Source: Candidatus Nitrosocosmicus sp. (GTDB lineage Bacteria > Methylomirabilota > Methylomirabilia > Rokubacteriales > CSP1-6). Taken from it: a DNA stretch of 64,000 nt. The translations under genes were made by a program, and so were the position numbers. Under the pieces are notes generated by a model. That model saw only the letters and a program-made list of their open reading frames with translations, was not told the DNA's origin and made no database searches. Below are positions 18,021-43,403 of this stretch, in pieces. Every line of letters starts with the position of its first letter. The stretch's first letter is position 1. The stretch covers positions 10,926 to 74,925 of the forward strand of contig DASRWT010000044.1 in assembly GCA_035654455.1 (NCBI GenBank), written 5' to 3'.

Positions 18021-19295
18021 TCACTCCTCCACCTCGAGCCCGTAGGCCGAGGCGAGGATGCGGATGGGATGCTCGGCGGCGCGGCCGGTGCCCTGGTTGA
18101 TCTGCAGCGCCGCCAGCGGGCAATCGGTGGCCACGCGATCGGGCCGGGCCGCTTCGATGTGCTTGAACAATGGATCGGCCAGCTTCATGGAAAGCTCGAA
18201 GTATTCCTTCTTCATGCCCCAGGTGCCGTCCACCGCCGAGCAGCGTTCCATCGTCTCCACCTCGGCCCCGGTGAGCCGCAGCACGTCGGCGGAGCGCGTG
18301 CCCATGTTCTGCGCCTTGAGATGGCAGGGCAGCTGATACGCGATCTTCCTCGGCGCCTGCGGGAAGTGGGTGTCGAGCCGGCCCTGCGCGTGCAGTCCGG
18401 CCAGATACTCGAAGAGATCGCGGGTGTGGGCCGCCACCAGGTTCGCATCCTCCGAGCCGTCCAGCCACGGATACTCCTGCTTGAGCATGTAGGAGCAGGT
18501 GGGCCCGGGCACCACGATCTCGCGCCCTTCCCGCACCGCCTGCGCCAGGCTCTTCGCGTTGTCCGCGATGAGGGCCTTGGCCTCCTTCACCGCGCCCCCG
18601 TCGAGGTACGGCATGCCGCAGCAGCGCTGGCCGGGAAGGGACACGTCCACTCCGTTCTTCTCCAGCACCGCCACCGCGGCCTTGCCGGTGCCGGGATCGT
18701 TATACTCCACCGAGCAGGTGGTGAAGAGCGCGATTCTCAAGTCGGCCGGCGGCGCCGGCGCGGCGGAGCGGCGGCGCTGGTCGAACCACTTCGAGAAGGT
18801 CTCGCGGTGGAAGAGCGGCAGCTTGCGGTCCTTGTGAATGCCCACCACCGCCTGCATCACCGCCCGGTTGGGCGCGAAGTCGTTCATCCAGTTCGAGACG
18901 GGGGCGGTGAGGCTGCCCAGCCGACCCACCAGCTCGGTATTGCCGAGGAAGCGGTCCTGGAGGGTGACCCCCTTCGCGCGCGCGTCCGCCGAGCGCGCGC
19001 GCAGCATGAGGCGGGGGAAGTCCACCTGCCACCGGTGCGGCGGCGTGTAGGGGCAGTGGTTGTAGCAGAGCTTGCACTGGTAGCAGAGATCCACCACTTC
19101 CTTCACGTCAGAGGCGGGCAGCTTCTCCACGTCTCCGTCCACCGCGTCGACGTCCAGGCGCTCGAACATCACCTTGAACGACGGGCAGAGCGGCAGGCAG
19201 CGCCGGCAACCGGCGCAGATGTCGTAGACGCGGCGAAGCTCCCGGTCCACCGCGTCCTGATTCCAGAATTCCGGCTGCCTGATGTCGAGCGTCAT
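18021..19295 (-). CDS. (Fe-S)-binding protein, heterodisulfide reductase HdrD/GlpC-like with CCG domains
   Basis: Two ferredoxin-type clusters (CAGCRRCLPLCP, CYQCKLCYNHCP) and CCG motifs (RCCGMP, PCH). Confidence 0.85.
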   Translation of the reverse strand: MTLDIRQPEFWNQDAVDRELRRVYDICAGCRRCLPLCPSFKVMFERLDVDAVDGDVEKLPASDVKEVVDLCYQCKLCYNHCPYTPPHRWQVDFPRLMLRARSADARAKGVTLQDRFLGNTELVGRLGSLTAPVSNWMNDFAPNRAVMQAVVGIHKDRKLPLFHRETFSKWFDQRRRSAAPAPPADLRIALFTTCSVEYNDPGTGKAAVAVLEKNGVDVSLPGQRCCGMPYLDGGAVKEAKALIADNAKSLAQAVREGREIVVPGPTCSYMLKQEYPWLDGSEDANLVAAHTRDLFEYLAGLHAQGRLDTHFPQAPRKIAYQLPCHLKAQNMGTRSADVLRLTGAEVETMERCSAVDGTWGMKKEYFELSMKLADPLFKHIEAARPDRVATDCPLAALQINQGTGRAAEHPIRILASAYGLEVEE

Positions 19296-19327
19296 TCCTT
19301 GGGCTCCGAGGTGACCGACGGGTCGTC

Positions 19328-19360
19328 GGGCCGGGCGCCCGGGATCTTGGCGCCCGGCCC
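19328..19360 (-). other. perfect 12-bp GC stem-loop between rubrerythrin and the HdrD-like gene
   Basis: GGGCCGGGCGCC-N9-GGCGCCCGGCCC with no U-tract. Confidence 0.5.
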
Positions 19361-19367
19361 GGAGCGA

Positions 19368-25884: not shown

Positions 25885-27099
25885 ATGGCCGGGCTCAAGG
25901 ACAAGTACTGCATCGTCGGCGTCGGCGAAACCGAGTACAGCCGCGACTCGCGCCGGAGCACCCGCGCGATGGCGGTGGAGGCGATCCGGAAGGCGATGGA
26001 CGACGCCGGGCTCGCCGGCGCCCAGGTGGACGGGATGATGTCGTATCAGAGCGGCGACTCCACGCCGGCGCCCTGGATCTCCGGCGACCTCGGCATGCGG
26101 CTGAACTTCTACATGGACGTGTTCGGCGGCGGCTCGTCCACCGAGGCCCTGGTGGGGCTCGCCATCGGCGCCATCGAGGCGGGGATGTGCAACACGGTGG
26201 CGCTGTTCCGCTCGATGAACGGCTATTCCGACTTTCGCATCGGGGGCACGGGGGCGCGCGCGGCCCAGCCGGTGCGCGGGCTGGACCTGGCGCAGGTGCC
26301 CTTCGGCATGCGAAGCGCGGGCCAGAACTTCGCGCCCACCTTCATGCGACACATGTACGAATACGGCACCACCTCGGAGCAGGTGGCGGCGGTGCGCGTG
26401 GCCCACAGCAAGCACGCCTCCCAGAACCCCAAGGCCTTCCTCAAGGACCGCGTGACGGTGGCCGACGTGGTGGGCTCGCGCTGGATCGTGAAGCCGCTGC
26501 ATCTCCTCGACTGCTGCCTGGAGACGGACAATGCCACCGCGCTCATCGTCACCTCCGCCGAGCGCGCGCGCGACCTCAAGCGGAAGCCTGCCGTCATCAT
26601 GGGCGTGGCGGGCCGGGTCAACAAGCCGCGGCTGGACTTCCACTGGGCCCACGGCCCGATCAGCCGCGTGGCCGGCCACTACGCCAAGGAGGTCGTGTTC
26701 GGTCAGGCCGGCATCCGGCCGGAGGACGTGAACGTGACCGGCTCCTACGACGCCTTCACCTTCACCACCATGCTCCAGCTCGAGGAGTACGGCTTCTGCA
26801 AGAAGGGCGAGGGCGGGGCCTACGTCGCGAGCGGCATCATCGAGCTGGGCGGCAAGCGTCCCAACAACACCTCCGGCGGGCACCTCTGCGAGGGATACAC
26901 CCACGGGATGAGCATGGTCATCGAGAACGTGCGCCAGCTGCGCGGGACCGTGGACGACTACTGCCCGGGCGCGGCGGAGGGCAAGCACTCCTACGACTAC
27001 GCGAAGGGCAAGTGCCGGCAGGTCAAGGACCCGCGCATCACCATGAACCTCGGCTGGGCGATGCCGCCCACCGGCTCGGCCCTGATCCTCCACAACTGA
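25885..27099 (+). CDS. thiolase-fold protein (SCP-x / lipid-transfer type)
   Basis: IVGVGETEYSR N-terminus and NTSGGHLCEGYTHGM C-terminal motif. Confidence 0.85.
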   Translation: MAGLKDKYCIVGVGETEYSRDSRRSTRAMAVEAIRKAMDDAGLAGAQVDGMMSYQSGDSTPAPWISGDLGMRLNFYMDVFGGGSSTEALVGLAIGAIEAGMCNTVALFRSMNGYSDFRIGGTGARAAQPVRGLDLAQVPFGMRSAGQNFAPTFMRHMYEYGTTSEQVAAVRVAHSKHASQNPKAFLKDRVTVADVVGSRWIVKPLHLLDCCLETDNATALIVTSAERARDLKRKPAVIMGVAGRVNKPRLDFHWAHGPISRVAGHYAKEVVFGQAGIRPEDVNVTGSYDAFTFTTMLQLEEYGFCKKGEGGAYVASGIIELGGKRPNNTSGGHLCEGYTHGMSMVIENVRQLRGTVDDYCPGAAEGKHSYDYAKGKCRQVKDPRITMNLGWAMPPTGSALILHN

Positions 27100-27115
27100 G
27101 AGCGGAGACCACCCC

Positions 27116-27622
27116 ATGGCCAACGTGGAATACCGCGGCATGAACCTGGTGATCCCCGAGAACGACTCGGAGTGGCGAGAGCACTTCAAGCTGGCCCGCC
27201 AGCGCCGCAAGCTCGTCCTCCGCAAGTGCGCGAAGTGCGGGCTCATGCGCTATCCGCCCAGCCACGGCTGCCCCTGGTGCCCCTCGCAGGAATGGAGCTG
27301 GCAGGAGGTGTCGGGCGGCGGCCACATCTATTCCTATGAGGTGGTGCACCACGCCATCCAGCCCGGCTTCAAGGAGTGGACGCCCTACACGGTGGCCCTG
27401 GTGGAGCTGGACGAGCAGCGGGGCGCGCCCACCGCCGACGAGGCGCTCCGCATCATCGCCAACGTGGTCACGCGCGAGTTCCGCCCCGAGCCCGAGGCCA
27501 ATATCGCCATCGGCAAGCGGGTGCGGGTGGTCTTCCAGGAGATCGGAGAAGACTGGGCCCTGCCCCAGGTGAGCCTCACCGACGAGCCCCCGGTGGGCCG
27601 GGTGTGGAGCTTCCCCGGCTAG
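27116..27622 (+). CDS. Zn-ribbon + OB-fold protein (DUF35), usual partner of the thiolase
   Basis: CAKCG...CPWC ribbon followed by an OB-fold segment. Confidence 0.85.
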   Translation: MANVEYRGMNLVIPENDSEWREHFKLARQRRKLVLRKCAKCGLMRYPPSHGCPWCPSQEWSWQEVSGGGHIYSYEVVHHAIQPGFKEWTPYTVALVELDEQRGAPTADEALRIIANVVTREFRPEPEANIAIGKRVRVVFQEIGEDWALPQVSLTDEPPVGRVWSFPG

Positions 27623-27633
27623 CCAGTCGCGTC

Positions 27634-28158
27634 CTATCCGCGCGTGAGCCGCGCCACGATGCTCTCGAAGGCCTTGTCCGCCAGCGCACGCACCTCATCC
27701 CGGGTGAGCGTCTGGATGGGGTGCGGCACCATCACCGTCTCGTAGTCCAGCGCGCCCAGCGCAGAAGCCTGCGCGCGCGCCGCCCGCTGGAACTCCGTCG
27801 AGATGACGGTGGCGGTGGGTATCCCGTGATCCTCGAAGAAAACGCCGTCGTGCACACTGCACGTTGTGCAGGACCCTCAGTCGGCGAGGCCCTCGATGAG
27901 CACCTCCGTGTCCTCGAGGATCTTCTTGCGGAGATCCTCCGGCGCGGGGCGCGCGAAGGTGGGCTTCTTGAGGCGATGAATGGCCCGGGGCCGGTGCCGC
28001 TCGCGGAGGAGCTCCTCGACGCGGTCCAGCAGATGATCGCCCTTGGCCTTGGAGATGTCCAGCAGGGTGATCACCTTGCCGTCGAGGGAGTCGGGGCGCG
28101 GCGCGCGGCGCCGCGTCACCGCCACGGAATCGGTGGGATCCAGGAATTCTTCGCTCAT
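27634..28158 (-). CDS. UGSC-motif selenoprotein (174 aa; Sec encoded by TGA 27877..27879)
   Basis: ORFs 27877..28158 and 27634..27855 are in the same frame. Read-through gives ...VLIEGLAD-U-GSCTTCSVHDGVFFEDHGIP.... A SECIS-like hairpin lies directly 3' of the TGA. Confidence 0.75.
27847..27874 (-). promoter_or_regulatory. candidate bacterial SECIS stem-loop
   Basis: mRNA GUC(C)UGCACA-ACGUGCAG-UGUGCA(C)GAC begins 2 nt after the UGA. The apical loop contains GU. Confidence 0.5.
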
Positions 28159-28166
28159 AGCGCCTC

Positions 28167-29216
28167 CTAGTCGGCGTCGATCTTGCGATGCACCATCCGC
28201 GACATCTTGGGAAAGGTCCAGCCCGCCACCACCGCCGAGAAGCGGCCGGCGGTGCCGCCCGCCACCACGAACTTGAGGTTGGCCGGCTCACGGAATTTCG
28301 CCATCAGCGTCTCCTCGGTGGCGGGGGCGGCGAACTTGGCCAGCACGTGGGCGGGCAGCCCCTCCCCGCCGTCCACCCCCGGAATGAGGGCGCGCACCGG
28401 CTTGCGCAGCCGCTCCCAGAGGTAGGCGCGCATGCGGTCCCGATCCCACCCGTCCCCGGCGAGCAGGCGCGCGTGCTCGGGGGAGAGGACGATCAGCGTG
28501 TCCCCGTGATGGGTGGACTTGTGATGGGAGATCACCGCCAGCGAGTGGGTGAGGGTGATGAGGAGATCCTCACCCCGCCGGCTCAGGTGATCGTAGACGG
28601 TCTGCGGCGCCGCGCCCGCGAAGACGCTGATCACGCTCTCGCCGGGCGCGAAGCCCGCTTCCACCGAGAGCGGCGACCAGGGGCTCTCCTCCTCGTTCTC
28701 CGCGATGCAAAAGGTGAAGTAGCCCGGATGCGCCAGCGTGGACATGGTGATGCCGCCCGCGGCGGCCCCGCCCAGATTGCGCACGATGAGGCGGAGCGCG
28801 CGCCCGATGGTGGCATTGGCGCGGTGGCCGGGCCCGAAGACGCCCGCTCCCGCATTGAGGTCGAGGCGCTTGCGCACGGGCCCGTTCACGATGAACAGCG
28901 GCGCCACGCTATTGGTGGTGGCGGACACGCCGTGGAGGTCGAAAGCGTCGTCGCACATCGCGTCCACGCCCGCGATCACCACCGGCAGATACTCCGGCCG
29001 GCAGCCCGCCATCACCGCGTTGACCGCGATCTTCTCCACGGTGGCGCGGCCGAAGTTGGGCGGCACGAGGGCCACCAGCTCGTCGGCGGCGCGGCCGGTG
29101 GCGGCCACCGCCGCCGCCACCCGCTCGCGGGTGGGAGGCACCACCGGCAGCCCGTCGGTCACGCCCCGCGCGTGGAGCGTCTCGAACGGATCGTCGGCGG
29201 ACGCCATCGCGCTCAC
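28167..29216 (-). CDS. conserved-looking protein of unknown function (349 aa)
   Basis: Clean ORF 8 nt upstream of the selenoprotein gene. Motifs TDGLPVVPPT, AVNAVMAGCRPEY and HGVSATTNS. No family recognised. Confidence 0.75.
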   Translation of the reverse strand: MSAMASADDPFETLHARGVTDGLPVVPPTRERVAAAVAATGRAADELVALVPPNFGRATVEKIAVNAVMAGCRPEYLPVVIAGVDAMCDDAFDLHGVSATTNSVAPLFIVNGPVRKRLDLNAGAGVFGPGHRANATIGRALRLIVRNLGGAAAGGITMSTLAHPGYFTFCIAENEEESPWSPLSVEAGFAPGESVISVFAGAAPQTVYDHLSRRGEDLLITLTHSLAVISHHKSTHHGDTLIVLSPEHARLLAGDGWDRDRMRAYLWERLRKPVRALIPGVDGGEGLPAHVLAKFAAPATEETLMAKFREPANLKFVVAGGTAGRFSAVVAGWTFPKMSRMVHRKIDAD

Positions 29217-29220
29217 CGCA

Positions 29221-29868
29221 TCACGGCCGGCAGGCCTGGAAGCGCGCGTAGTCTCCCGCGGCCCGGCTCTTCGTATCGTCGGCGTCGGTGAGGACGGCGA
29301 TGCCCGCCGGCGCGGGGACCTCGGTCTCCTTGAAGCGCGCGCGGTAGTCCTCCAGCACGTTGACCCGCTCCTCCACCCACTGCCCCTTCGGGCTGGGGCC
29401 GCTGCGCAGCACCCGCGCCTGGGTCAACCCGGCGCTCGAGGTCAAGGACGTGCCCACCGGGACCGCCGCGCTCCAGACGTACTTGAGCGACTTGAGCGAC
29501 ACCGAGGAATGCGGCCACACCGCGTACACGGACAGCGCGCTGTCGTTGGTCTTGCTCTGGCGCTCGTCCGAGCCCTTCGGATGCTCCTGGAGGCGCCAGG
29601 CCCAGGTCAGCACCGGATAGGCGGCGAGATCCCATGGCTGCTCGCGCGCGGCCTGGATGCCGATGCCGTCGGACACCGCGGCGAGGAACCGGCGCCCGCC
29701 TTCCTCGCGCACCGTGTACACGCCGCGCCCGGAGTCCTTGCGGAGCTTCCAGCCGGCGGGGAACGCGCCCGGCGCGGCGCGCGAGAAGTCGTCCAGCACG
29801 ATGCAGTCGGCGGCGAACGCGATCCCGGGGGACAGGACCAGGGCGAGGGCGACGAGAAGTGTGCGCAT
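29221..29868 (-). CDS. secreted DUF3047-like protein
   Basis: Signal peptide MRTLLVALALVLSPGIAFA. Body recalled as DUF3047 (WKLRKDSGRGVYTV...YVWS). Confidence 0.7.
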   Translation of the reverse strand: MRTLLVALALVLSPGIAFAADCIVLDDFSRAAPGAFPAGWKLRKDSGRGVYTVREEGGRRFLAAVSDGIGIQAAREQPWDLAAYPVLTWAWRLQEHPKGSDERQSKTNDSALSVYAVWPHSSVSLKSLKYVWSAAVPVGTSLTSSAGLTQARVLRSGPSPKGQWVEERVNVLEDYRARFKETEVPAPAGIAVLTDADDTKSRAAGDYARFQACRP

Positions 29869-29885
29869 GCCTACAGCATGCCTGG

Positions 29886-31295
29886 CTACCGCCCGCGGCG
29901 CCACCACTGATGCACGAGCTGGTCCACCACCTGGACGAGCTGCGACACCGTGCGGCACTCCTTCACGATGTCGCACGAGGGCGAATACAGCGGCATCACG
30001 CTGTCGCCGATCCCCCAGCCCCACTGGCCCTCGGGATTGAGCCAGATGATCCCCTTCACGCGCTCCCGGATCTGACGAATGGCCCAGGCCTGGGGGTCGT
30101 TGTAGTTGTTGCGCGCGTCCCCCAGGATGAGCACGGTGGTCTTCCGGTCCAGCGAGTCCAGCTCGGTGCGGACGAAGCGGTTGAAGGCATAGCCGAAATC
30201 GGAGCGGCAGTGATAGTCCACCGGCGAGCCCTTGAGCGCCCACTCGATGGCGCGGTCCACCGGGAAGGTCTTGAAGGCCTGGCTGACCTCGGCGATCTCG
30301 GATACGAACACGTAGGAGCGCATCCGGGAGAAGCAGTCCTGGAGGCTCCACACCAGCTGGAGCATGAAGCGCGAGGCATTGCGCACCGAGTCTGACACGT
30401 CGCAGAGGGTGACGAGCTTGGGCTTTTCCCGGTGCCGGCGGCGGTAGCGCACCTCCATGGGAATGCCGCCATACTGCAGACTTTTCCTGATGGTCCGCCG
30501 CGAGTCGAGGCGCCCCTTCTCCTCCTGGCGCTGGCGGAGGGCGAGGGCGTCCTTGATCTTGCGGGCCAGCCGGGCCACCACCGCCTTCATCTGGGCCACC
30601 TCGTCCGGCGAGAGCGCGAACAGCGGCTTGTCGGTGAGGACCTCCCGGGTGAGCTTTTCGCCCTCCCGGAAGGCCCGCCGCTCGAGCTCGCGCTCCACGT
30701 GCTGCCGGATCATGCGCCGGAACGCCTCCAGGCGGAGATCGAGGTAGTTGCGGATGCGGGCGAGCTGGCCGGGATCGAGGCCCTGCGCCTCCAGCATCTG
30801 CATGATGCGGGACAGGTCCCGCTCGATGGCCTCCCAGTCGAACTTGTCGTAGATGCGCCGGGAGAAATAGCCGATCTGGAGGAAGTACATGAGCCGCTCG
30901 AGCCCGGCCCCCTGCCCCTGGCCGCGGATGGCCATCTCCATCTCGGCGCCCTCACCGCGGAGCATGAGCTCGGTCATGTCGTCCATCTCGAGCCCGTCCT
31001 GGGCCATGAGCTTGTCGAGCAGCTCGCGCATCTTCGGATCCTCGGGCCCCAGCGCCTTCTTGAGCCCGGCACCCAGCGCCTCGAGGTCCAGGAAGTAGAG
31101 GTCGAAGATGCGATCGAAGGTCGGCAGGTCGCGGGATTCCTTCACCAGCGTGGCGGCCAGCGCGGACTTGAAGGTCTCTCGCGTCTCCACGCCGATCTCG
31201 GCGGAGGCGGCGAGGGCGTCCAGCGCCTCGCTGGTGGAGATGCGCAGCTCCGCCCGGCGCAAGTCGCTGATGAACTCCAGAATTCTTTGGTCCAT
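29886..31295 (-). CDS. VWA-domain protein, CoxE-like
   Basis: N-terminal ISDLRRAELRISTSEALDA..., C-terminal VWA domain with LCDVSDS (MIDAS DxSxS) and TTVLILGDARNN. Confidence 0.85.
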   Translation of the reverse strand: MDQRILEFISDLRRAELRISTSEALDALAASAEIGVETRETFKSALAATLVKESRDLPTFDRIFDLYFLDLEALGAGLKKALGPEDPKMRELLDKLMAQDGLEMDDMTELMLRGEGAEMEMAIRGQGQGAGLERLMYFLQIGYFSRRIYDKFDWEAIERDLSRIMQMLEAQGLDPGQLARIRNYLDLRLEAFRRMIRQHVERELERRAFREGEKLTREVLTDKPLFALSPDEVAQMKAVVARLARKIKDALALRQRQEEKGRLDSRRTIRKSLQYGGIPMEVRYRRRHREKPKLVTLCDVSDSVRNASRFMLQLVWSLQDCFSRMRSYVFVSEIAEVSQAFKTFPVDRAIEWALKGSPVDYHCRSDFGYAFNRFVRTELDSLDRKTTVLILGDARNNYNDPQAWAIRQIRERVKGIIWLNPEGQWGWGIGDSVMPLYSPSCDIVKECRTVSQLVQVVDQLVHQWWRRGR

Positions 31296-31350
31296 CTAGT
31301 AGCCTGTGCGCGACCTACGACGGTCGGCGGTTGGGCCTCTTCGCCCTTTT

Positions 31351-31429
31351 GGGCTCATCGGGGCGTGGTCTCGATGGTGAGCACTCGCGCGTGGGGGCTC
31401 ATCGGGGCGTCGTTCCCATCGTGAGCACT
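31351..31429 (-). repeat. two 35-bp imperfect direct repeats (period 44 bp) in the spacer upstream of the CoxE-like gene
   Basis: 31351..31385 and 31395..31429 match at 30 of 35 positions. Reverse strand: AGTGCTCAC-N-ACGCCCCGATGAGCCC. Confidence 0.8.
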
Positions 31430-31430
31430 G

Positions 31431-31985
31431 TCATCGGGAGAAGGTCACCCAGGAGGACTTGAAGACGTCTTCGTTGCCGTCGCGGCTGATGGGATGGAGC
31501 CGGCCGTCCTCGAGCCGCAGGAGCCCGTGGAAGGAGCCGCGGCAGACGAGGTGGGTCATGCGGAACTTCCAGCCGAGCGAGCCGAGGGGCACCTCCTCGT
31601 CCTGCTCCACCGCGCGGGTCACGTCGGGAACGTCGCCCACCAGGTGCAGCACCCTCACCGGCCCCTCCGCGCAGCGCAGGCCGAGCACGACCTTGTAGGA
31701 CAGGCCCTGGCGGAACGTCTCCACCGTCATCTCGCCGGGATGCAGCAGGTGCGGCACCGCGTCCGGCATGGTGGCCCGGAAGAAGTCGCGCGGCGTCGGG
31801 TGCACGTAGTAGAAGTGCCAGCGGCCGGCGGCGGAGATCCAGAGCTTGGTGTACTCGCCCAGCGCGCCCGAGACGCAGCGACCGCCCTCGATGAGCACGG
31901 GCCCCGACGGCCCCAGTTCGGGGAGCCGGATGCGGGGCGAGGGAAACCACAGCTCGCGGAACTCGGAGAGGCCCGCCCAGTCCAT
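31431..31985 (-). CDS. hypothetical protein (184 aa)
   Basis: ATG 9 nt downstream of the MoxR stop. No family recognised. Confidence 0.6.
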   Translation of the reverse strand: MDWAGLSEFRELWFPSPRIRLPELGPSGPVLIEGGRCVSGALGEYTKLWISAAGRWHFYYVHPTPRDFFRATMPDAVPHLLHPGEMTVETFRQGLSYKVVLGLRCAEGPVRVLHLVGDVPDVTRAVEQDEEVPLGSLGWKFRMTHLVCRGSFHGLLRLEDGRLHPISRDGNEDVFKSSWVTFSR

Positions 31986-31994
31986 GACCGCCGC

Positions 31995-32915
31995 CTACTT
32001 GGCCGGCGCCTCGGCGAGCACCTTGTCCAGCGCGCCCCGCACCCGCTCGAGGTCCTTCTCGTGCTTGACGAGCATGGTGAGGGTGGACTCCACCAGCTCG
32101 CGGTCCATCGAGTCCGCGTTGAGGATCACCAGGGAGCGCGCCCAGTCGAGGCTCTCCGACACCGACGGCGCCTTCCGGAGCTCGAGGCCGCGGATCTTGT
32201 TCACCACTCCCACCACCGCCTGGGCCAGGCGCTCCGGGAGCTCCGGGACCTTGAGCCGGATGATGGCGAGCTCCTCGTCCGGAGGCGGGAAGTCGATGAA
32301 GAGGTGGAGGCACCGGCGCTTGAGGCCGTCGGACAGCTCACGCGCATTGTTCGAGGTGAGCACGACCAGCGGAATATTGGTGGCCTTGATGGTGCCGAGC
32401 TCGGGCACGGACACCTGGAAGTCCGAGAGGACCTCGAGCAGGAACGCCTCGAATTCCGGCTCCGCCTTGTCGATCTCGTCCACGAGCAGCACCACCGGAT
32501 CCTCCGACTCGATGGCCTGGAGCAGCGGCCGCGGAGAGAGAAAGCGGTGGGAGAAGAAGGCGTCGTCCTGACCGGAGATCTTGGCCACCGCGTCCGGCAG
32601 CGAGGGGGCGTCGGCGATCAGCTCGCCGATCCGATCGCGGAGGAGCTGGGTATAGAGGAGCTGCTTGGCGTACTTCCACTCGTAGAGCGCCTTGCCCTCG
32701 TCGAGCCCCTCGTAGCACTGGAGGCGGATGAGCCGTCGGTTCGTGATCTCGGCCAGTGTCTTGGCCAGCTCGGTCTTCCCCACGCCCGCGGGCCCCTCGA
32801 TGAGCACCGGCCGGCCCATCTTCGCCGCGAGATACACCACGGTGCAGATGCGCCGGTTGGCGATGTAGCGGGCGTTCTTGAAGCCTTGCTGAACATCCTC
32901 CACCGATCGGAACAT
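31995..32915 (-). CDS. MoxR-family AAA+ ATPase (CoxD-like)
   Basis: Walker A GPAGVGKT and Walker B LLVDEIDK. Start at MFRSVED preceded by AAGGAG. Confidence 0.9.
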   Translation of the reverse strand: MFRSVEDVQQGFKNARYIANRRICTVVYLAAKMGRPVLIEGPAGVGKTELAKTLAEITNRRLIRLQCYEGLDEGKALYEWKYAKQLLYTQLLRDRIGELIADAPSLPDAVAKISGQDDAFFSHRFLSPRPLLQAIESEDPVVLLVDEIDKAEPEFEAFLLEVLSDFQVSVPELGTIKATNIPLVVLTSNNARELSDGLKRRCLHLFIDFPPPDEELAIIRLKVPELPERLAQAVVGVVNKIRGLELRKAPSVSESLDWARSLVILNADSMDRELVESTLTMLVKHEKDLERVRGALDKVLAEAPAK

Positions 32916-33000
32916 GGCGGCTCCTTGGAATGAATTGGCGTTCATCCTAGCATTACGACGCGGGTTTGGCGAGCGGCCTGCGCGGTGGGACACTGAGGTT

Positions 33001-34110
33001 GTGACCGACGAGCGCGCGCGCGGCTACCATCGTATCCAGCTGGGCCTTTCCCTCCTGGCCTTCGCGCTCGGCGTGGGCTATCTGTCCGCCGTGCTCGCCA
33101 CCGGCGCGAGCGCGCGGCTGGCCGCGCGCCTCGCGGAGTGGACCGCGCGGCCTTGGGTCGCACTGGGCGTCATGGCCCTCGTGGTGGGCGCGGGCTGGCG
33201 CCTTGTCACGCTCCCGCTGAGCTGGCTGAGCGGGTTCTGGCTGCCCCGGCGCTTCGGCCTCCTCCACCAGCCCTTCGCGCGCTGGGCCTGGGACGCGGCG
33301 AAGGCGGGCGCGATCGGCGGCGTGCTGGGCCTGGCCGGTGTCGAGGTGGTCTACGCGCTGCTGCGCTGGACGCCGTGGTGGTGGCTCGCCGCCGCCGCCG
33401 TCTTCCTCGCCGCCGCCGTCCTCCTCACGCTGGTCGCGCCGGTCTGGCTGATCCCGCTCTTCTATCGACTCGAGCCCCTGGCGGACGGGGAGCTGCGCGA
33501 GCGCCTCCTCCGGCTCGGCCGGCGAACGGGCGTGCCGGTGCTGGGCGTCTGGGTGGGCGATCAATCCCGCAAGAGCCGCACCGCGAACGCCGCGGTGACC
33601 GGGCTCGGCCGAACCCGGCGGATCATCCTGTTCGACACCCTCGTGCGCGACTTTCCTCCCGAAGAGATCGAGGCGGTGCTGGCGCACGAGCTGGCCCACC
33701 ACGCGCATGCCGACATCTGGCGCGGGCTCGCGGTTCAGGGCGCAGTCACCCTCGCGACCTTCTGGCTGGCCGATCGGCTGCTCGCCGTCGGCGCGTCAGG
33801 GCTCGGCCTCGCGGGGCCGGCGGACATCGCCGGGCTCCCGCTCCTCCTCCTCATCGCGGTGGGCGCGGGCGTCGTCGCGCTGCCCCTGACGAATGGCTGG
33901 TCTCGCCATGTGGAGCGTCAGGCCGACGACTTCGCGGTGCGCGCCCTCGGATCTGCCGGCGCCTTCATTGCGGCCATGGAGCGGCTGGCCCGGCTCAACC
34001 TCGCCGAGCGCGAGCCCCATCGGCTCAAGGAGATCCTGCTGTACTCCCATCCGGCCATCGGGCGCCGGGTGGCCCGGGCTCAGGCCCTGGCGGCGGGGTC
34101 GGTCGGCTGA
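33001..34110 (+). CDS. M48-family (Ste24/HtpX-like) membrane metalloprotease
   Basis: HELAHHAH zinc motif and several TM helices. I chose GTG 33001 (GAGG upstream) because the start of the longer tracked ORF (32914) overlaps the divergent MoxR start. Confidence 0.8.
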   Translation: MTDERARGYHRIQLGLSLLAFALGVGYLSAVLATGASARLAARLAEWTARPWVALGVMALVVGAGWRLVTLPLSWLSGFWLPRRFGLLHQPFARWAWDAAKAGAIGGVLGLAGVEVVYALLRWTPWWWLAAAAVFLAAAVLLTLVAPVWLIPLFYRLEPLADGELRERLLRLGRRTGVPVLGVWVGDQSRKSRTANAAVTGLGRTRRIILFDTLVRDFPPEEIEAVLAHELAHHAHADIWRGLAVQGAVTLATFWLADRLLAVGASGLGLAGPADIAGLPLLLLIAVGAGVVALPLTNGWSRHVERQADDFAVRALGSAGAFIAAMERLARLNLAEREPHRLKEILLYSHPAIGRRVARAQALAAGSVG

Positions 34111-39604: not shown

Positions 39605-40135
<531 letters not shown>

Positions 40136-40223
40136 CGGTTGGTCTCCTTAGGGTGGTTGGGGGTGGGGGTGGTTGCTCAGGCTGGCGGCGGTGCTCCTGG
40201 AAGCGGTCCCGGTCCGGCGGCCG

Positions 40224-41813
40224 TCAGGGCGCGGTCGAGCGGCGCGTCTCGGCGGCGCGCTCGGCAGCCAGCCGGCCGGTTTCCGCGCCGCTGGGGTCGA
40301 CATGGCGCATGGCAGCCGCCAGCGCGGCATGTCCGGCTTGCTCCGCGATGAGCCGGTGCATCGCCTGGCAGACGCGCCGGTACGCCGGATGGCCCTGCGG
40401 CGCGGTGCGGAGCTCGAGCATGTGCATGGCCTCGCGGGCGTTCATCTCCATGTAATACCGCACGCGGTAGGCCATGGCCACCGCATAGGGGGCCACCGCG
40501 GCGAGGCCCGCGCCCGCGAGCTCGGCGTGGAGCGCGGCGGAGTCATCCATCACGCGGGTCCAGTCCGCAAGGGCGCCCGCCTCGGCGATCTCGTCTCCCA
40601 TCACCCAGCCGTGCCGAGTCGAGAGCGGCTGCCACTCCAGGGTGAGCAGCCGGTGACGCTGGAGATCGCGGAAGGCGCCGTAGTCGCCCAGCACGTCGAA
40701 CCGGTACGCGGTGCGCTCGAAGGCCCGGCCCGGCTTGTGGCGGCGGTTCTCGCGCGCGCCGATGTAGGCCTGGAGCACGCGCCGGCGCTCCTCGGGCCCG
40801 AGCTTCCGGGCGAGGGCGAGGAGCTGATCATCAGGCAGGTCGGAGGCGGCGTACAAGGCCGCCGCCACCACCTTCACCTCGCCGTCCGGATCCCAGTCGG
40901 TCAGTGTCACCTCGGATCGCGGCTCGGGCTCGATCCCCGCCAGCAGCGTCTCCGCCGCCGCGCGCGTGGCGCGGGCAGTATCCGCGAGGTACCGCGCCCA
41001 GACGCCGCCGCGCTCCGGCCGCTCCAGGCGCTTGAGGAAGGCCGGAATCACCTTGCGTAGCTCGACAAGCATGAGCTCTGCTTCGTCGCGCGCCTCGCGT
41101 AGCGGATGCGCGCGCATGCGGAGGAGGAGCGCCTCATAGCCCTGAGCGGTGCCGAATATGCCGACATTGGAGCGTGTGGCCGCGGGCAGCAAGCCGCGCA
41201 GGCTGTCCAGCGCCTTGGCCCGCATGGTCATGCGCCAGGGCCCCTCGGCCTGGCCGGGCTCGCGCGGCACGCGCGCCGACCAGAAGGCCTGCATGGGCTC
41301 GAGCCAGCGCGCGTAGGTCTCGAAGGCGCGATCGAGAGCTTCCACGTAGCGCGGGCGCAGGAGATGGCCGTCGAGCTCGGAGGGAACATGGTACTTCCAG
41401 GCCCCGTCCGGCCGGTCCGTGTACGGCACGTAGCGGGTCGACTGCTCGAGATAGGCCATGAGCCGGCCCCACTCGAGCACCTTGGTGAGGAGGTTGGAGG
41501 CGCCCTCGCAGGCCAGGTGCACCCCGCCGAGCTGGGCGACGGAGTCGTCGCCGTAGTCCGAGAGCACGCGCTCGTAGAGCGCGTCCGCGCGGGTGGTGCC
41601 GACGTCTGGACTGCCGGCGCCGACGGGACCTTCGCGAAACTCGTCCAGGTACAGCCGCCGGAGAGACTTGGCCGAGCGCGAATAGCGCGCGAACAGCGCG
41701 CCCTTCACCACTTCGGGGAGATTGACGAGGGCGAAGACGGGCCCGTCGAGATTGGTGAAATGCGGCGCGAGGGCGGCACGTTCCTCGGCGGTGAACGTTT
41801 CCACGACGGTCAT
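40224..41813 (-). CDS. long-form FAD-dependent thymidylate synthase ThyX-like protein (529 aa)
   Basis: ARYSRS and FRDLQRHR (RHR) ThyX-type motifs. ATG at 41813. Confidence 0.75.
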   Translation of the reverse strand: MTVVETFTAEERAALAPHFTNLDGPVFALVNLPEVVKGALFARYSRSAKSLRRLYLDEFREGPVGAGSPDVGTTRADALYERVLSDYGDDSVAQLGGVHLACEGASNLLTKVLEWGRLMAYLEQSTRYVPYTDRPDGAWKYHVPSELDGHLLRPRYVEALDRAFETYARWLEPMQAFWSARVPREPGQAEGPWRMTMRAKALDSLRGLLPAATRSNVGIFGTAQGYEALLLRMRAHPLREARDEAELMLVELRKVIPAFLKRLERPERGGVWARYLADTARATRAAAETLLAGIEPEPRSEVTLTDWDPDGEVKVVAAALYAASDLPDDQLLALARKLGPEERRRVLQAYIGARENRRHKPGRAFERTAYRFDVLGDYGAFRDLQRHRLLTLEWQPLSTRHGWVMGDEIAEAGALADWTRVMDDSAALHAELAGAGLAAVAPYAVAMAYRVRYYMEMNAREAMHMLELRTAPQGHPAYRRVCQAMHRLIAEQAGHAALAAAMRHVDPSGAETGRLAAERAAETRRSTAP

Positions 41814-41829
41814 CTTAACGCAGCCCGGC

Positions 41830-42105
41830 TCAGCCGCCATAGCCCCAGTTCCAGCAGGGCAGGCGTTCCTTCCAGAACCAGTCGTCGCAGAGCTGCTCGT
41901 CACAGCGCTGCCGGCATTCACCCGCGGTGAGGTTCGGGGTGCAGGAGAGCTTGCCCTCCGCGCGGCAGTAGCACGAGCCGAGAAATTCCGCTCGGGCGGG
42001 CTCGGCCGCGCGTGACTCGGTGGCCGGCGCTGCCACCGCCAGCAGCGCGACGAGGGCAAGCCGGGAAGCGCGGGCGTCGAGGCGCGGGGTGCGCATTGAC
42101 CCCAT
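41830..42105 (-). CDS. small secreted Cys/Trp-rich protein (91 aa)
   Basis: GGGAGG SD, a signal peptide, and a mature part with 7 Cys that ends WFWKERLPCWNWGYGG. Confidence 0.55.
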   Translation of the reverse strand: MGSMRTPRLDARASRLALVALLAVAAPATESRAAEPARAEFLGSCYCRAEGKLSCTPNLTAGECRQRCDEQLCDDWFWKERLPCWNWGYGG

Positions 42106-42131
42106 TCCAGCACCTCCCTATACTCCGCGCA

Positions 42132-43391
42132 ATGGCTCGCGGCCTCGTGTTCAGCACCTCGATCGCCGGCATCCTGCTCGTGACGCTTCCAGCGGCGCCC
42201 GCGCCCTCCACCACCGTCCGCGCGGTGGCCGCGATCGGTGAATCGGCCCCCGGCGGCGGGCGCTTCGGCGGGTTCACCGTGGAGTCGCTGCCCGTTCTGG
42301 CTCCCACCAATAGCCGGGGACAGGTCGCCTTCTTCGCCACCATTCATCGCGGCTCCGCCGGCGAGGGGTTCTTTCTCCGCTCGCGCGATCGGATAACGAA
42401 GATCGCGCGCGAAGGCGACGTGGTGCCGGGCGTGGGCGCGCTCTCGGGCTTCGGCCGTCATCCCATTCCCGCCTTGAACGAATCGGGAGCGGTGGCGTTT
42501 GCGGCGGCGGTCGCCGGCGGCAAGACGGTGGAGGGCATCTTCCTTTTCGCCCGGGGCCGACTCCAGCCGGTGGCGCTCAGCGGCGGGCCGGCGCCCGGCG
42601 TCTCGTCGGGAACGCTCGCGGGCGTCGAATCCCCCGCCCTCAACGACCGGGGCGACGTGGTCTTCCTCGCCACGGTGAGACGGGGACGCGAGAGCCTGGA
42701 GGCCGTCTACATTCGGGAGGCGAGCGGCAAGCTCCGCAAGGTTGTCGCCCAGGGCGATCCCGCGCCCGCGGGCGGGAGCTTCGCGGGCTTCGGCGCCCCC
42801 GTGCTGAACAACAAGGGCGTGGTCGGCTTCGCCGCCGCCGTGGAGGGCAAGTCGGTGCCGGGCGGCATCTTCCTCGCCACGAGTGATCAGGTGCGGATGC
42901 TGGTGGGTGCGGGTGACGACAGTCCCGTGGGTGGCATCTTCTTCAAGTTCTCGGAGCGGCTCAGCCTCAATGACGCGGGCGCGGTGGCCTTCAATGCCGT
43001 GCTCAAGGACGCGCCTTCCGCGGGCGGGCAATTCGTGGTGCAGGCGGGCCGGGTCCTCAAGGTGGCGGTGGTCGGCGACGCAGCGCCCGGCGGCGGCGCC
43101 TTTTCGCATTTCGGGCTCTGGCCCGGTCTCAATGCGCGCGGCAGCCTCGCGTTCGTCGCCTCGGTGGACGGCGGGCCGAGCCCGATGGCGGTGTTCGTGG
43201 GGGGGCCGGGGCTGGTGGAGCGGATCGCCGCGGTCGGGGATGACTTGCCCGGGGGCCGGCTCCAGTCCTTCGGTCTCTATCCTCTGGTCGCCATCAACAA
43301 TGCGGGCGGCGTGACCTTCGCCACCGCCCCCACCGCCACCGGCGAAGGGGTCGAGGGGATCTTTCTGGCCGGATCCGACGCGCGGCCCTGA
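42132..43391 (+). CDS. secreted protein with seven NxxGxxAF-type repeats (beta-propeller-like)
   Basis: Repeats NSRGQVAFFA, NESGAVAFAA, NDRGDVVFLA, NNKGVVGFAA, NDAGAVAFNA, NARGSLAFVA and NNAGGVTFAT, about 50 aa apart. Confidence 0.7.
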   Translation: MARGLVFSTSIAGILLVTLPAAPAPSTTVRAVAAIGESAPGGGRFGGFTVESLPVLAPTNSRGQVAFFATIHRGSAGEGFFLRSRDRITKIAREGDVVPGVGALSGFGRHPIPALNESGAVAFAAAVAGGKTVEGIFLFARGRLQPVALSGGPAPGVSSGTLAGVESPALNDRGDVVFLATVRRGRESLEAVYIREASGKLRKVVAQGDPAPAGGSFAGFGAPVLNNKGVVGFAAAVEGKSVPGGIFLATSDQVRMLVGAGDDSPVGGIFFKFSERLSLNDAGAVAFNAVLKDAPSAGGQFVVQAGRVLKVAVVGDAAPGGGAFSHFGLWPGLNARGSLAFVASVDGGPSPMAVFVGGPGLVERIAAVGDDLPGGRLQSFGLYPLVAINNAGGVTFATAPTATGEGVEGIFLAGSDARP

Positions 43392-43403
43392 GCGGGGCGC
43401 GCG

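What the first reader, a model, noticed from the sequence alone, without database searches (positions are those of the whole stretch)
27634..28158. In-frame TGA plus hairpin: a U-G-S-C motif selenoprotein that ORF callers split in two
The track lists two small minus-strand ORFs (27877..28158 and 27634..27855). They are in the same frame, separated only by TGA (27877..27879) and 21 nt. Reading through gives ...EVLIEGLAD-U-GSCTTCSVHDGVFFEDHGIPTATV..., a 174-aa protein with Sec in a U-G-S-C redox-type motif. Two nt after the UGA the mRNA can fold as GUC(C)UGCACA-[ACGUGCAG]-UGUGCA(C)GAC (27847..27874), which is the position and shape expected for a bacterial SECIS. From memory, NCBI has a protein family named UGSC family (seleno)protein of about this size, and its function is unknown. 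A nonsense-mutation pseudogene would not be expected to place the stop exactly at a C/U-GSC motif with a hairpin behind it.
Basis: partly seen in the sequence, partly recalled or inferred. Interest (0 to 1): 0.85.

Follow-up and report, generated by a model that had tools for sequence, protein, structure and literature searches.

The report
UGSC-family selenoprotein gene, split by callers
The two small ORFs are one gene for a selenocysteine-containing protein of the already described UGSC family; its UGA is followed by a conserved E. coli-type SECIS hairpin, and its function is still unknown but is tied to the uncharacterised gene just upstream.

Summary
On the minus strand, ATG 28158 runs through TGA 27879-27877 to TAG 27636-27634 and gives 174 aa with ...EGLAD-U-GSCTTCSVHD. 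The fused protein passes the curated cut-offs of NCBIfam NF041046 (UGSC family (seleno)protein) and Pfam PF24696.

Of 80 related genomic loci from at least six phyla, 78 have TGA at this column and an open, constrained frame behind it. Cys-form homologues place Cys there.

G23 and U24 sit in the loop at the same distance from UGA as in E. coli fdhF. Third codon positions 18, 21, 24 and 27 are invariant in 91 Sec forms but vary freely in 57 Cys forms that encode almost the same peptide.

The family has been known since 2007-2008, so this is ordinary. Sec machinery could not be checked: none lies in the window.

Beyond the finding:
- A 349-aa protein with no Pfam or NCBIfam match lies next to UGSC in 111 of 119 loci.
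- It is fused to UGSC in some eukaryote-like proteins.
- Some lineages add a thioredoxin-like CxxC domain to it.

Together these suggest a two-subunit selenol/thiol redox enzyme; that part is inferred.

The parts
27634..28158 (-). Complete UGSC-family selenoprotein CDS (174 aa, Sec at residue 94, stop TAG 27636-27634)
   Evidence: frame; NF041046 163.9 bits, PF24696 173.3 bits; orthologues; the same codon-position constraint on both sides of the TGA
27877..27879 (-). In-frame UGA read as selenocysteine (column D-[U/C]-G-S-C)
   Evidence: TGA in 78/80 genomic loci; Cys (TGC/TGT) in 57 unique Cys-form genes at the same column; the only TGA in the window with a coding frame on both sides
27849..27863 (-). 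Core SECIS hairpin CGUGCA-GUG-UGCACG (nt +17..+31 from the U of UGA; G23 and U24 in the loop)
   Evidence: MFE and centroid structure; 98% of pair cells kept in 91 Sec forms against 68% in 57 Cys forms; loop GUN in 91/91; third-position entropy 0 at nt 18, 21, 24, 27 against 1.80, 0.63, 1.62, 1.51 bits in Cys forms; fdhF SECIS has G23, U24 and U26-C30 at the same positions
28163..28168 (-). AGGAGG ribosome-binding site of the UGSC gene, overlapping the stop codon (TAG 28169-28167) of the upstream gene
   Evidence: Read directly; in related loci the two genes overlap by 4 nt
28167..29216 (-). Partner gene: 349-aa protein with no Pfam or NCBIfam match, adjacent or fused to UGSC
   Evidence: no family, no PDB match by sequence; at least 8000 homologues, almost all unnamed or 'hypothetical protein'; adjacent in 108, nearby or fused in 3 more, of 119 loci; AF2 pLDDT 88.8; weak fold match to class I fumarate hydratase

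Best explanation
One gene, 27634-28158 (-), encodes a 174-aa UGSC-family selenoprotein.

How the UGA is read. UGA 27879-27877 is most likely decoded as selenocysteine by SelB and Sec-tRNA(Sec). A minimal bacterial SECIS directs this: a 6-bp stem with a G-U-N loop at nt +17..+31, with G23 and U24 placed as in E. coli fdhF. The conserved UGA, the hairpin and the selection on the downstream frame are shown here. Sec insertion itself is inferred.

What the protein does. It carries an invariant D-[U/C]-G-S-C-x-x-C-x-x-H-D motif. It is the small subunit of a two-gene module whose large subunit is the uncharacterised 349-aa protein encoded just upstream.

Most likely mechanism (inferred). The selenol acts as the nucleophilic or redox centre on a substrate bound by the large subunit. 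It is then resolved through overlapping U-x-x-C and C-x-x-C pairs as a selenenylsulfide-to-disulfide relay. A thioredoxin-type CxxC module re-reduces it. That module is fused to the partner in proteobacteria and actinobacteria, and is presumably free-standing in this organism.
For: Identity:
- The fused protein passes the family cut-offs, and all 21 diverse full-length members match PF24696.
- TGA is conserved in 78/80 loci from Methylomirabilota, Entotheonella/Tectimicrobiota, Binatia, Actinomycetota, Poribacteria and alpha- and gamma-proteobacteria.
- Cys forms align Cys at the same column.

Translation past the UGA:
- In 57 close relatives, codon-position entropy is 0.42/0.28/0.91 upstream and 0.38/0.26/0.95 downstream.

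SECIS:
- Third positions 18, 21, 24 and 27 are invariant in 91 Sec forms and variable in 57 Cys forms. Ser codon 8 is AGT (TGT, Cys, in 11) in Sec forms, but TCN or AGC in 56/57 Cys forms.
- G23 and U24 and the 3' arm UGCAC match fdhF in position (their role in SelB binding per PMC8659212).

Lineage:
- A Methylomirabilota MAG is reported to hold 63 predicted selenoprotein genes (PMC13188914).

Partner link:
- The partner is adjacent in 108 and nearby or fused in 3 more of 119 loci, for Sec and Cys forms alike.
- Natural partner-UGSC fusions exist, one cluster holding a Norrisiella sphaerica protein.

Redox reading:
- Long-form partners carry an N-terminal Trx-like domain with C-x-T-C and a conserved RPGCGS motif.
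- The partner has an invariant Cys72.
- Sec forms far outnumber Cys forms (255 against 21 in GOS; PMC2398784).
Against: - No selA, selB, selD or tRNA-Sec lies in the 64 kb or in 60 related loci. The rest of the genome could not be read.
- There is no compensatory covariation in the stem, because it hardly varies. Part of its pairing potential comes from the peptide itself (TGC and CAC codons; Cys forms still keep 68% of pair cells).
- No Rfam family matches.
- For function: no sequence similarity to thioredoxin-fold, GrdB/PrdB or any solved structure.
- No structure of UGSC was predicted here.
- 8 of 119 loci lack the partner.
- The C-x-x-C-x-x-C-x-x-H spacing also fits a metal site.
Confidence: 0.88

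Rival explanations
1. The U/C-x-x-C-x-x-C-x-x-H-D motif is a metal or Fe-S cluster site, not a redox relay. On this reading UGSC is the ligand-bearing small subunit of a hydro-lyase-like enzyme. This rival concerns function only; the gene would still be a selenoprotein.
For: - Three invariant Cys/Sec, plus His and Asp, at a spacing of 3.
- The best, non-significant PDB sequence hits are the CGxC..C zinc sites of MDR dehydrogenases.
- The partner model's top fold hits are class I [4Fe-4S] fumarate hydratases, which exist as two-subunit enzymes (7xky_A, E = 1.6e-4, prob 0.97).
- In Methylomirabilota the operon also holds MoxR AAA+ and VWA (CoxE-like) genes. From general knowledge, such pairs are often cofactor-insertion chaperones.
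Against: - TM-scores are only 0.31-0.36.
- hhalign against E. coli TtdA and TtdB finds nothing.
- The partner keeps only one invariant and one near-invariant Cys.
- The MoxR and VWA genes are not linked to UGSC outside Methylomirabilota.
- A strong preference for Sec over Cys and fused Trx-like CxxC domains are typical of redox catalysis.
- No natural Sec-ligated Fe-S or structural Zn site is known to me.
Confidence: 0.2
2. The TGA is a true stop: a nonsense-mutation pseudogene, a sequencing error, or two separate small genes.
For: - Gene callers and most database entries treat it that way, giving 95-aa and 79-aa products.
- Sec machinery has not been shown for this genome.
Against: - The same TGA occurs in 78/80 loci across phyla.
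- The seven codons between the TGA and the first possible start (GTG 27855) encode the invariant GSCTTCS and are conserved.
- The downstream frame shows the same purifying selection as the upstream one.
- The RNA hairpin is constrained only in TGA-bearing genes.
- Full-length Cys forms exist.
Confidence: 0.02
3. UGA is read through by something other than Sec, such as a reassigned code (UGA = Trp or Gly) or near-cognate suppression.
For: None specific; it is a formal possibility for any in-frame UGA.
Against: - Many well-supported genes in the window end in TGA, for example MgtE, UvrA and the sigma-54 activator.
- The column aligns with Cys, not Trp or Gly, in homologues.
- A SelB-type hairpin follows the UGA.
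Confidence: 0.02
4. UGSC is a stand-alone thioredoxin-fold oxidoreductase, as the 2008 paper suggested, and its adjacency to the upstream gene is only synteny.
For: [quoted passage not shown]
Against: - No Trx-family Pfam or PDB match, even at E<=10, for 21 members.
- Adjacency holds across at least six phyla while every other neighbour changes.
- Gene fusions exist.
Confidence: 0.08

Closest known systems
UGSC family (seleno)protein: NCBIfam NF041046, Pfam PF24696, the 'UGSC-containing protein' of Zhang & Gladyshev (Hyphomonas neptunium ABI76733.1; GOS, 255 Sec and 21 Cys forms)
   Same: Full-length HMM match above the curated cut-offs. The same U-G-S-C motif, the same size, and Sec/Cys alternation at one column.
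   Different: Nothing essential; this is an orthologue in a Methylomirabilota (Rokubacteria) genome. Added here: the motif extends to D-[U/C]-G-S-C-x-x-C-x-x-H-D, and the partner gene is near-universal.
E. coli fdhF SECIS (17-nt minimal hairpin, nt 15-31 after UGA)
   Same: The hairpin ends at nt 31. G23 and U24 are in the apical loop and the 3' arm U26-G27-C28-A29-C30 is at identical positions (PMC8659212).
   Different: No bulged U17 (C17 pairs with G31). The loop has 3 nt (GUN) rather than 4 (GGUC). The lower stem is not conserved.
Selenoprotein B of glycine and D-proline reductases (GrdB/PrdB, Pfam PF07355)
   Same: A small Sec protein with a UxxC motif (motif listed in PMC2398784). From general knowledge, it works with a separately encoded substrate-binding subunit and is re-reduced by a thioredoxin system. 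This is a 'works like' analogy.
   Different: No sequence similarity (no PF07355 hit at E<=10 in 21 members). The partner is unrelated to PrdA or GrdE by Pfam. The hosts are mostly aerobes from soil, water and sponges.
Class I [4Fe-4S] fumarate hydratase / L-tartrate dehydratase alpha subunit (PDB 7xky_A, 6mso, 5l2r); applies to the partner only
   Same: The best fold matches of the confident partner model (E = 1.6e-4, prob 0.97). These enzymes also have a large plus small two-subunit layout.
   Different: TM 0.31-0.36. No profile similarity to TtdA. The three cluster-binding Cys are not conserved in the partner.

Membership tests
UGSC family (seleno)protein (NF041046 / PF24696) | Whole-protein HMM score above the curated cut-off | tested here: met
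   163.9 bits against 125 (NCBIfam, equivalog; profile 1-147 of 147) and 173.3 against 25 (Pfam, profile 2-171 of 172)
UGSC family (seleno)protein (NF041046 / PF24696) | [U/C]-G-S-C motif at the aligned column, with Cys in non-Sec homologues | tested here: met
   D-[U/C]-G-S-C-x-x-C-x-x-H-D is invariant in 21 diverse members; 57 unique Cys-form genes have TGC or TGT at the column
Bacterial selenoprotein gene | In-frame UGA conserved among orthologues, with a constrained reading frame behind it | tested here: met
   78/80 loci have TGA; downstream codon-position entropy 0.38/0.26/0.95 against 0.42/0.28/0.91 upstream
Bacterial selenoprotein gene | SECIS hairpin closely downstream of UGA with G (and U) in the apical loop (the 16-37 nt spacing rule of bSECISearch is recalled from memory; fdhF geometry per PMC8659212) | tested here: met
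   19 nt lie between UGA and the loop; the loop is GUN in 91/91 Sec forms; 98% of stem pair cells are kept; synonymous sites are frozen only in Sec forms; same geometry as fdhF
Bacterial selenoprotein gene | selA, selB, selC (tRNA-Sec) and selD present in the genome | not testable with these tools
   None in the window or in 60 related loci. The rest of the genome is not available. Literature: a Methylomirabilota MAG with 63 predicted selenoproteins.
Bacterial selenoprotein gene | Selenium shown in the protein (75Se labelling or mass spectrometry) | not testable with these tools
   Needs an experiment
Thioredoxin-fold thiol/selenol oxidoreductases | Trx fold with the redox motif at the N-terminus of a helix | tested here: inconclusive
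   No Trx-type Pfam or PDB sequence match for UGSC at E<=10.
GrdB/PrdB selenoprotein B (PF07355) | Sequence membership in PF07355 | tested here: not met
   No hit at E<=10 for 21 members
Class I Fe-S hydro-lyase alpha subunit (partner gene) | Shared fold | tested here: inconclusive
   Foldseek 7xky_A E = 1.6e-4, prob 0.97, but TM 0.31/0.36 and rmsd 13.7
Class I Fe-S hydro-lyase alpha subunit (partner gene) | Sequence-profile similarity and three conserved cluster-ligand cysteines | tested here: not met
   hhalign against E. coli TtdA: prob 0.1. Only C72 is invariant and C170 near-invariant. No Fumerase Pfam hit.

The most novel reading that the evidence does not exclude
UGSC and its partner form a widespread, uncharacterised two-subunit selenoenzyme. 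The partner alone has at least 8000 homologues and no family model. The large subunit is a distant structural relative of Fe-S hydro-lyase alpha subunits, and the small subunit supplies a Sec-x-x-Cys-x-x-Cys-x-x-His centre. That centre could be a three-step selenol/thiol relay or a Sec-ligated metal site. Either would be an enzyme type not yet described, possibly acting on a carboxylate substrate, because GntR/FCD regulators and carboxylate transporters flank it in two alpha-proteobacterial loci.
Probability: 0.25. Interest if true: 0.65.

Novelty: already known. Interest (0 to 1): 0.3.

Why it matters
For annotation, two 'hypothetical' fragments should be merged into one selenoprotein CDS. 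The same error affects hundreds of database entries, where 95-aa and 79-aa halves are listed separately.

For biology, UGSC is one of the most abundant aquatic selenoprotein families (PMC2398784), yet it has no known function. Three results here make that function testable, for instance with the Cys-form pair of a cultivable Bradyrhizobium:
- near-obligate pairing with an unannotated 349-aa protein;
- a Trx-like domain fused to that protein in some lineages;
- the extended U-x-x-C-x-x-C-x-x-H-D motif.

The Sec-form against Cys-form comparison is also a clean natural control. It shows that a SECIS imposes both codon choice and an amino-acid change (Thr to Val/Leu/Met) on the protein.

Tried and rejected
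- AF2 of the partner from a single sequence failed (pLDDT 34.6). It was repeated with a 132-row alignment.
The N-terminal half was used instead.
- Rfam at gathering threshold found only tRNA-Met.
- PDB sequence and profile searches found nothing significant for UGSC or the partner.
- hhalign of the partner and UGSC against E. coli TtdA and TtdB found nothing.
- My guess of a DmpA/S58 Ntn-hydrolase rested on one member at E = 0.085. The fold search did not support it.
- Neighbour analysis outside Methylomirabilota found no recurrent gene other than the partner.
- MoxR, VWA, DUF3047 and the thiolase/OB-fold genes are lineage-specific synteny.
- tRNA-Sec was sought in 60 loci and not found.
- Figure S1A of the 2008 paper ('Unknown_1' fusion) is an image, so I could not confirm that it is the partner.
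- Paper searches for Sec in Rokubacteria and for UAG-Sec in Geodermatophilus were unproductive.

Full report
OBSERVATION

On the minus strand an ORF starts at ATG 28158, preceded by AGGAGG. It reaches TGA at 27879-27877 and continues in the same frame to TAG 27636-27634. Read-through gives 174 aa with ...EVLIEGLAD-U-GSCTTCSVHDGVFFEDHGIP....

The window has 70% G+C and many spurious ORFs. I therefore applied a filter for true coding frames: GC3 at least 0.8 and GC1 greater than GC2 on both sides of the stop. Under it, this is the only in-frame TGA in 64 kb. Many well-supported genes of the window end in TGA, so the genome uses UGA as a stop.

FAMILY

With U written as C, the fused protein scores 163.9 bits against NCBIfam NF041046 'UGSC family (seleno)protein' (equivalog, cut-off 125). 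It scores 173.3 bits against Pfam PF24696 'UGSC' over the whole profile.

The family is in the literature:
- It was first mentioned for Hyphomonas neptunium and an Olavius symbiont (PMC1976440).
- It is listed among the most abundant GOS selenoprotein families, with 255 Sec and 21 Cys forms, a UxxC motif, 'likely a Trx-like fold' and a fusion to an 'Unknown_1' domain (PMC2398784).
- A 2026 review still lists it among selenoproteins whose functions remain largely uncharacterised (PMC13188914).

HOMOLOGUES

- Among the 120 closest protein clusters, about 100 end exactly at ...E[AG]LAD.
- Among 50%-identity representatives of 1.84 billion proteins, 476 match the N-terminal half. Among the best 150 listed, most are about 95 aa long and end at the same column.
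- A scan of one genome per species returned at least 529 relatives. In the best 80 loci, 78 have TGA followed in frame by GSC[TI][TS]C[SC][VLM]HD and about 80 further codons.
- These loci come from Methylomirabilota/Rokubacteria, Entotheonella/Tectimicrobiota, Binatia, Actinomycetota, Poribacteria and alpha- and gamma-proteobacteria.
- The closest locus, at 94% identity, is a Rokubacteria MAG, so the window is from that phylum.
- Full-length Cys forms (Bradyrhizobium, Rhodoplanes, soil metagenomes) align Cys with the Sec column.
- Across 21 diverse members the invariant block is D-[U/C]-G-S-C-x-x-C-x-x-H-D.

THE FRAME BEHIND THE UGA IS TRANSLATED

In 57 close relatives, the mean entropy at codon positions 1/2/3 is 0.42/0.28/0.91 upstream of the TGA and 0.38/0.26/0.95 downstream. 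Selection is therefore the same on both halves.

SECIS

Positions are numbered from the U of UGA as 1. In 91 unique Sec-form sequences, third codon positions 6, 9, 12 and 15 vary. Positions 18, 21, 24 and 27 have zero entropy, and variation resumes further downstream, fully from position 39.

The frozen block folds as C17-G18-U19-G20-C21-A22 / G23-U24-N25 / U26-G27-C28-A29-Y30-G31, which is window 27863..27849. It is the MFE and centroid structure, with dG -7.4 kcal/mol.

- Pairs are kept in 98% of cells. The only changes are G18-C30 to G-U (13 sequences) and A22 to U (11 sequences, which widens the loop).
- The loop is GUN in 91/91.

The control is 57 unique Cys-form genes that encode CGSCTSCSTHD.

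| Feature | 91 Sec forms | 57 Cys forms |
|---|---|---|
| Third-position entropy at nt 18 / 21 / 24 / 27 (bits) | 0 / 0 / 0 / 0 | 1.80 / 0.63 / 1.62 / 1.51 |
| Codon 8 | AGT (TGT in 11) | TCN or AGC in 56/57 |
| Codon 9 | NUG (Val/Leu/Met) | ACN (Thr) |
| Stem pair cells kept | 98% | 68% |

The constraint is therefore at the RNA level and specific to UGA-bearing genes. It even dictates an amino-acid difference.

The E. coli fdhF SECIS was confirmed verbatim in 5419 genomes. It has G22-G23-U24-C25 in its loop and U26-G27-C28-A29-C30 as its 3' arm. G23, U24 and the 3' arm therefore occupy the same positions as here. U17 and G23 are described as the SelB-binding sites, and U17, G23 and U24 as the conserved positions (PMC8659212).

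The differences from fdhF are no bulged U17, a 3-nt loop and no conserved lower stem.

Its top pairs fail in 18-21 of 91 sequences, and it leaves G18 and C21 unexplained.

There is no compensatory covariation because the stem hardly varies. Folding energy alone is not exceptional (z +0.54 and -1.07). No Rfam family matches.

SEC MACHINERY

The window holds only tRNA-Met and no selA, selB or selD. Sixty related loci hold no tRNA-Sec. This is expected for such short stretches and leaves the test open. A review reports a Methylomirabilota MAG with 63 predicted selenoprotein genes, so the phylum does use Sec.

WHAT IT WORKS WITH

The gene immediately upstream (28167-29216, 349 aa) ends in a stop that overlaps the UGSC ribosome-binding site.

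- It has no Pfam or NCBIfam match and no PDB relative by sequence or profile.
- It nevertheless has at least 8000 homologues, almost all unnamed or 'hypothetical protein'; one is labelled 'thioredoxin, partial'.
- Among 119 loci with enough upstream DNA, it is directly upstream of UGSC in 108: 72 Sec, 35 Cys and 1 TAG. It is nearby or fused in 3 more.
- All other neighbours change between phyla.
- Natural fusions of partner followed by UGSC exist. They are truncated at the TGA by gene callers. One such cluster contains a protein of the alga Norrisiella sphaerica.
- Partners in proteobacteria, Geodermatophilus and one unplaced MAG carry an extra N-terminal domain of about 140 aa. It has KR[DE]C-x-T-C and a conserved RPGCGS motif, and a weak AhpC-TSA/thioredoxin Pfam signal.
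- The catalytic part has invariant C72, T100, T101, R132, N134, R139, E173, E175, W180, D209, E247, H248 and K307.
- With a 132-row alignment, AF2 gives a confident model (pLDDT 88.8, pTM 0.88).
- Its best PDB matches are class I [4Fe-4S] fumarate hydratases (7xky_A, E = 1.6e-4, prob 0.97), but with TM only 0.31-0.36.
- There is no profile similarity to E. coli TtdA or TtdB. I treat this as a lead, not a classification.

MECHANISM

Shown: one CDS, a conserved UGA, an fdhF-like SECIS under RNA-level selection, a translated downstream half, and an obligate-looking partner.

Inferred: SelB-dependent Sec insertion. UGSC is the small redox subunit whose selenol attacks a substrate held by the partner. 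It is resolved via C97 and C100 and re-reduced by a Trx-type CxxC module.

The main functional rival is a metal or Fe-S site formed by U/C, C, C and H. The motif spacing, the fold lead and the MoxR-VWA genes of the Methylomirabilota operon favour it. Several points count against it:
- the Sec preference;
- the fused Trx-like domains;
- the lack of conserved cluster ligands in the partner;
- the lineage-restricted MoxR-VWA linkage.

VERDICT

The finding is a correct re-annotation of a member of a family described since 2007-2008 and modelled in NCBIfam and Pfam, so its novelty is low. The residual interest lies in the unknown function and in the unannotated partner family.

Noticed in passing
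L072:4265-4267 (Geodermatophilus sp. LHW52908, NZ_QVQH01000007.1): The Sec column of UGSC is TAG instead of TGA. The same CGUGCA-GUG-UGCACG hairpin lies behind it, the downstream frame is intact and the partner is upstream. From memory, Geodermatophilaceae have been reported to decode Sec at UAG; I could not verify this in the paper library.
   Followed up: partly
L020:4268-4270 (Methylomirabilia MAG JBHIAB010000064.1; protein P0001): The column is CGA (Arg) and about 36 codons of the C-terminal half are missing, yet NCBI names the product 'UGSC family (seleno)protein'. It is probably a decayed copy or an assembly artefact. No partner lies upstream.
   Followed up: partly
L170:4067-4110 and L171:1509-1552 (partner-UGSC fusions P0288, P0347): The fusion genes keep TGA and the CGUGCA/UGCACG stem, but codon 8 is ATC, so the loop is UCA rather than GUN. 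This would fit eukaryotic hosts that use a 3'-UTR SECIS. Only one fusion cluster is traced to a eukaryote (Norrisiella sphaerica).
   Followed up: partly
L005:6565-7035, L006, L069, L072, L074, L078, L083 (N-termini of long-form partners): An extra domain of about 140 aa with a conserved KR[DE]C-x-T-C (Trx-like) motif and a second conserved motif, RPGCGS. The window's partner lacks it.
   Followed up: partly
window 29221-33023 (-): A tightly packed run upstream of the partner: MoxR-type AAA+ (31995-33023), a 187-aa protein with no Pfam match (31431-31994), VWA_CoxE (29886-31295) and DUF3047 (29221 to about 29886). It is conserved with UGSC only inside Methylomirabilota.
   Followed up: partly
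L012, L022, L061 (Methylomirabilota) and L081, L082, L087 (Poribacteria): UGSC occurs without the partner next to it. In the Methylomirabilota cases DUF3047 is directly upstream. In L081 (Poribacteria) a TPR protein and ClpB flank it; the neighbours in L082 and L087 were not annotated.
   Followed up: no
window 25885-27622 (+): A thiolase-like lipid-transfer protein (404 aa) and a ChsH2-type OB-fold/zinc-ribbon protein (168 aa) converge on the UGSC gene. The OB-fold ORF ends at 27622, 12 nt from the UGSC stop, and no terminator search was made. Syntenic only within Methylomirabilota.
   Followed up: no
window 40224-43403 (-): A 1059-codon open frame whose only Pfam match is ThyX (Thy1) at residues 604-788. 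The ORF is probably over-extended by the high G+C content, or it covers more than one gene.
   Followed up: no
window 39605-40147 (-) and 18021-19367 (-): A Redoxin/AhpC-TSA protein and a CCG/4Fe-4S (GlpC/HdrD-like) protein. Both families have Sec-containing members elsewhere. Here both are uninterrupted ORFs, and the coding-frame scan found no other read-through TGA.
   Followed up: partly
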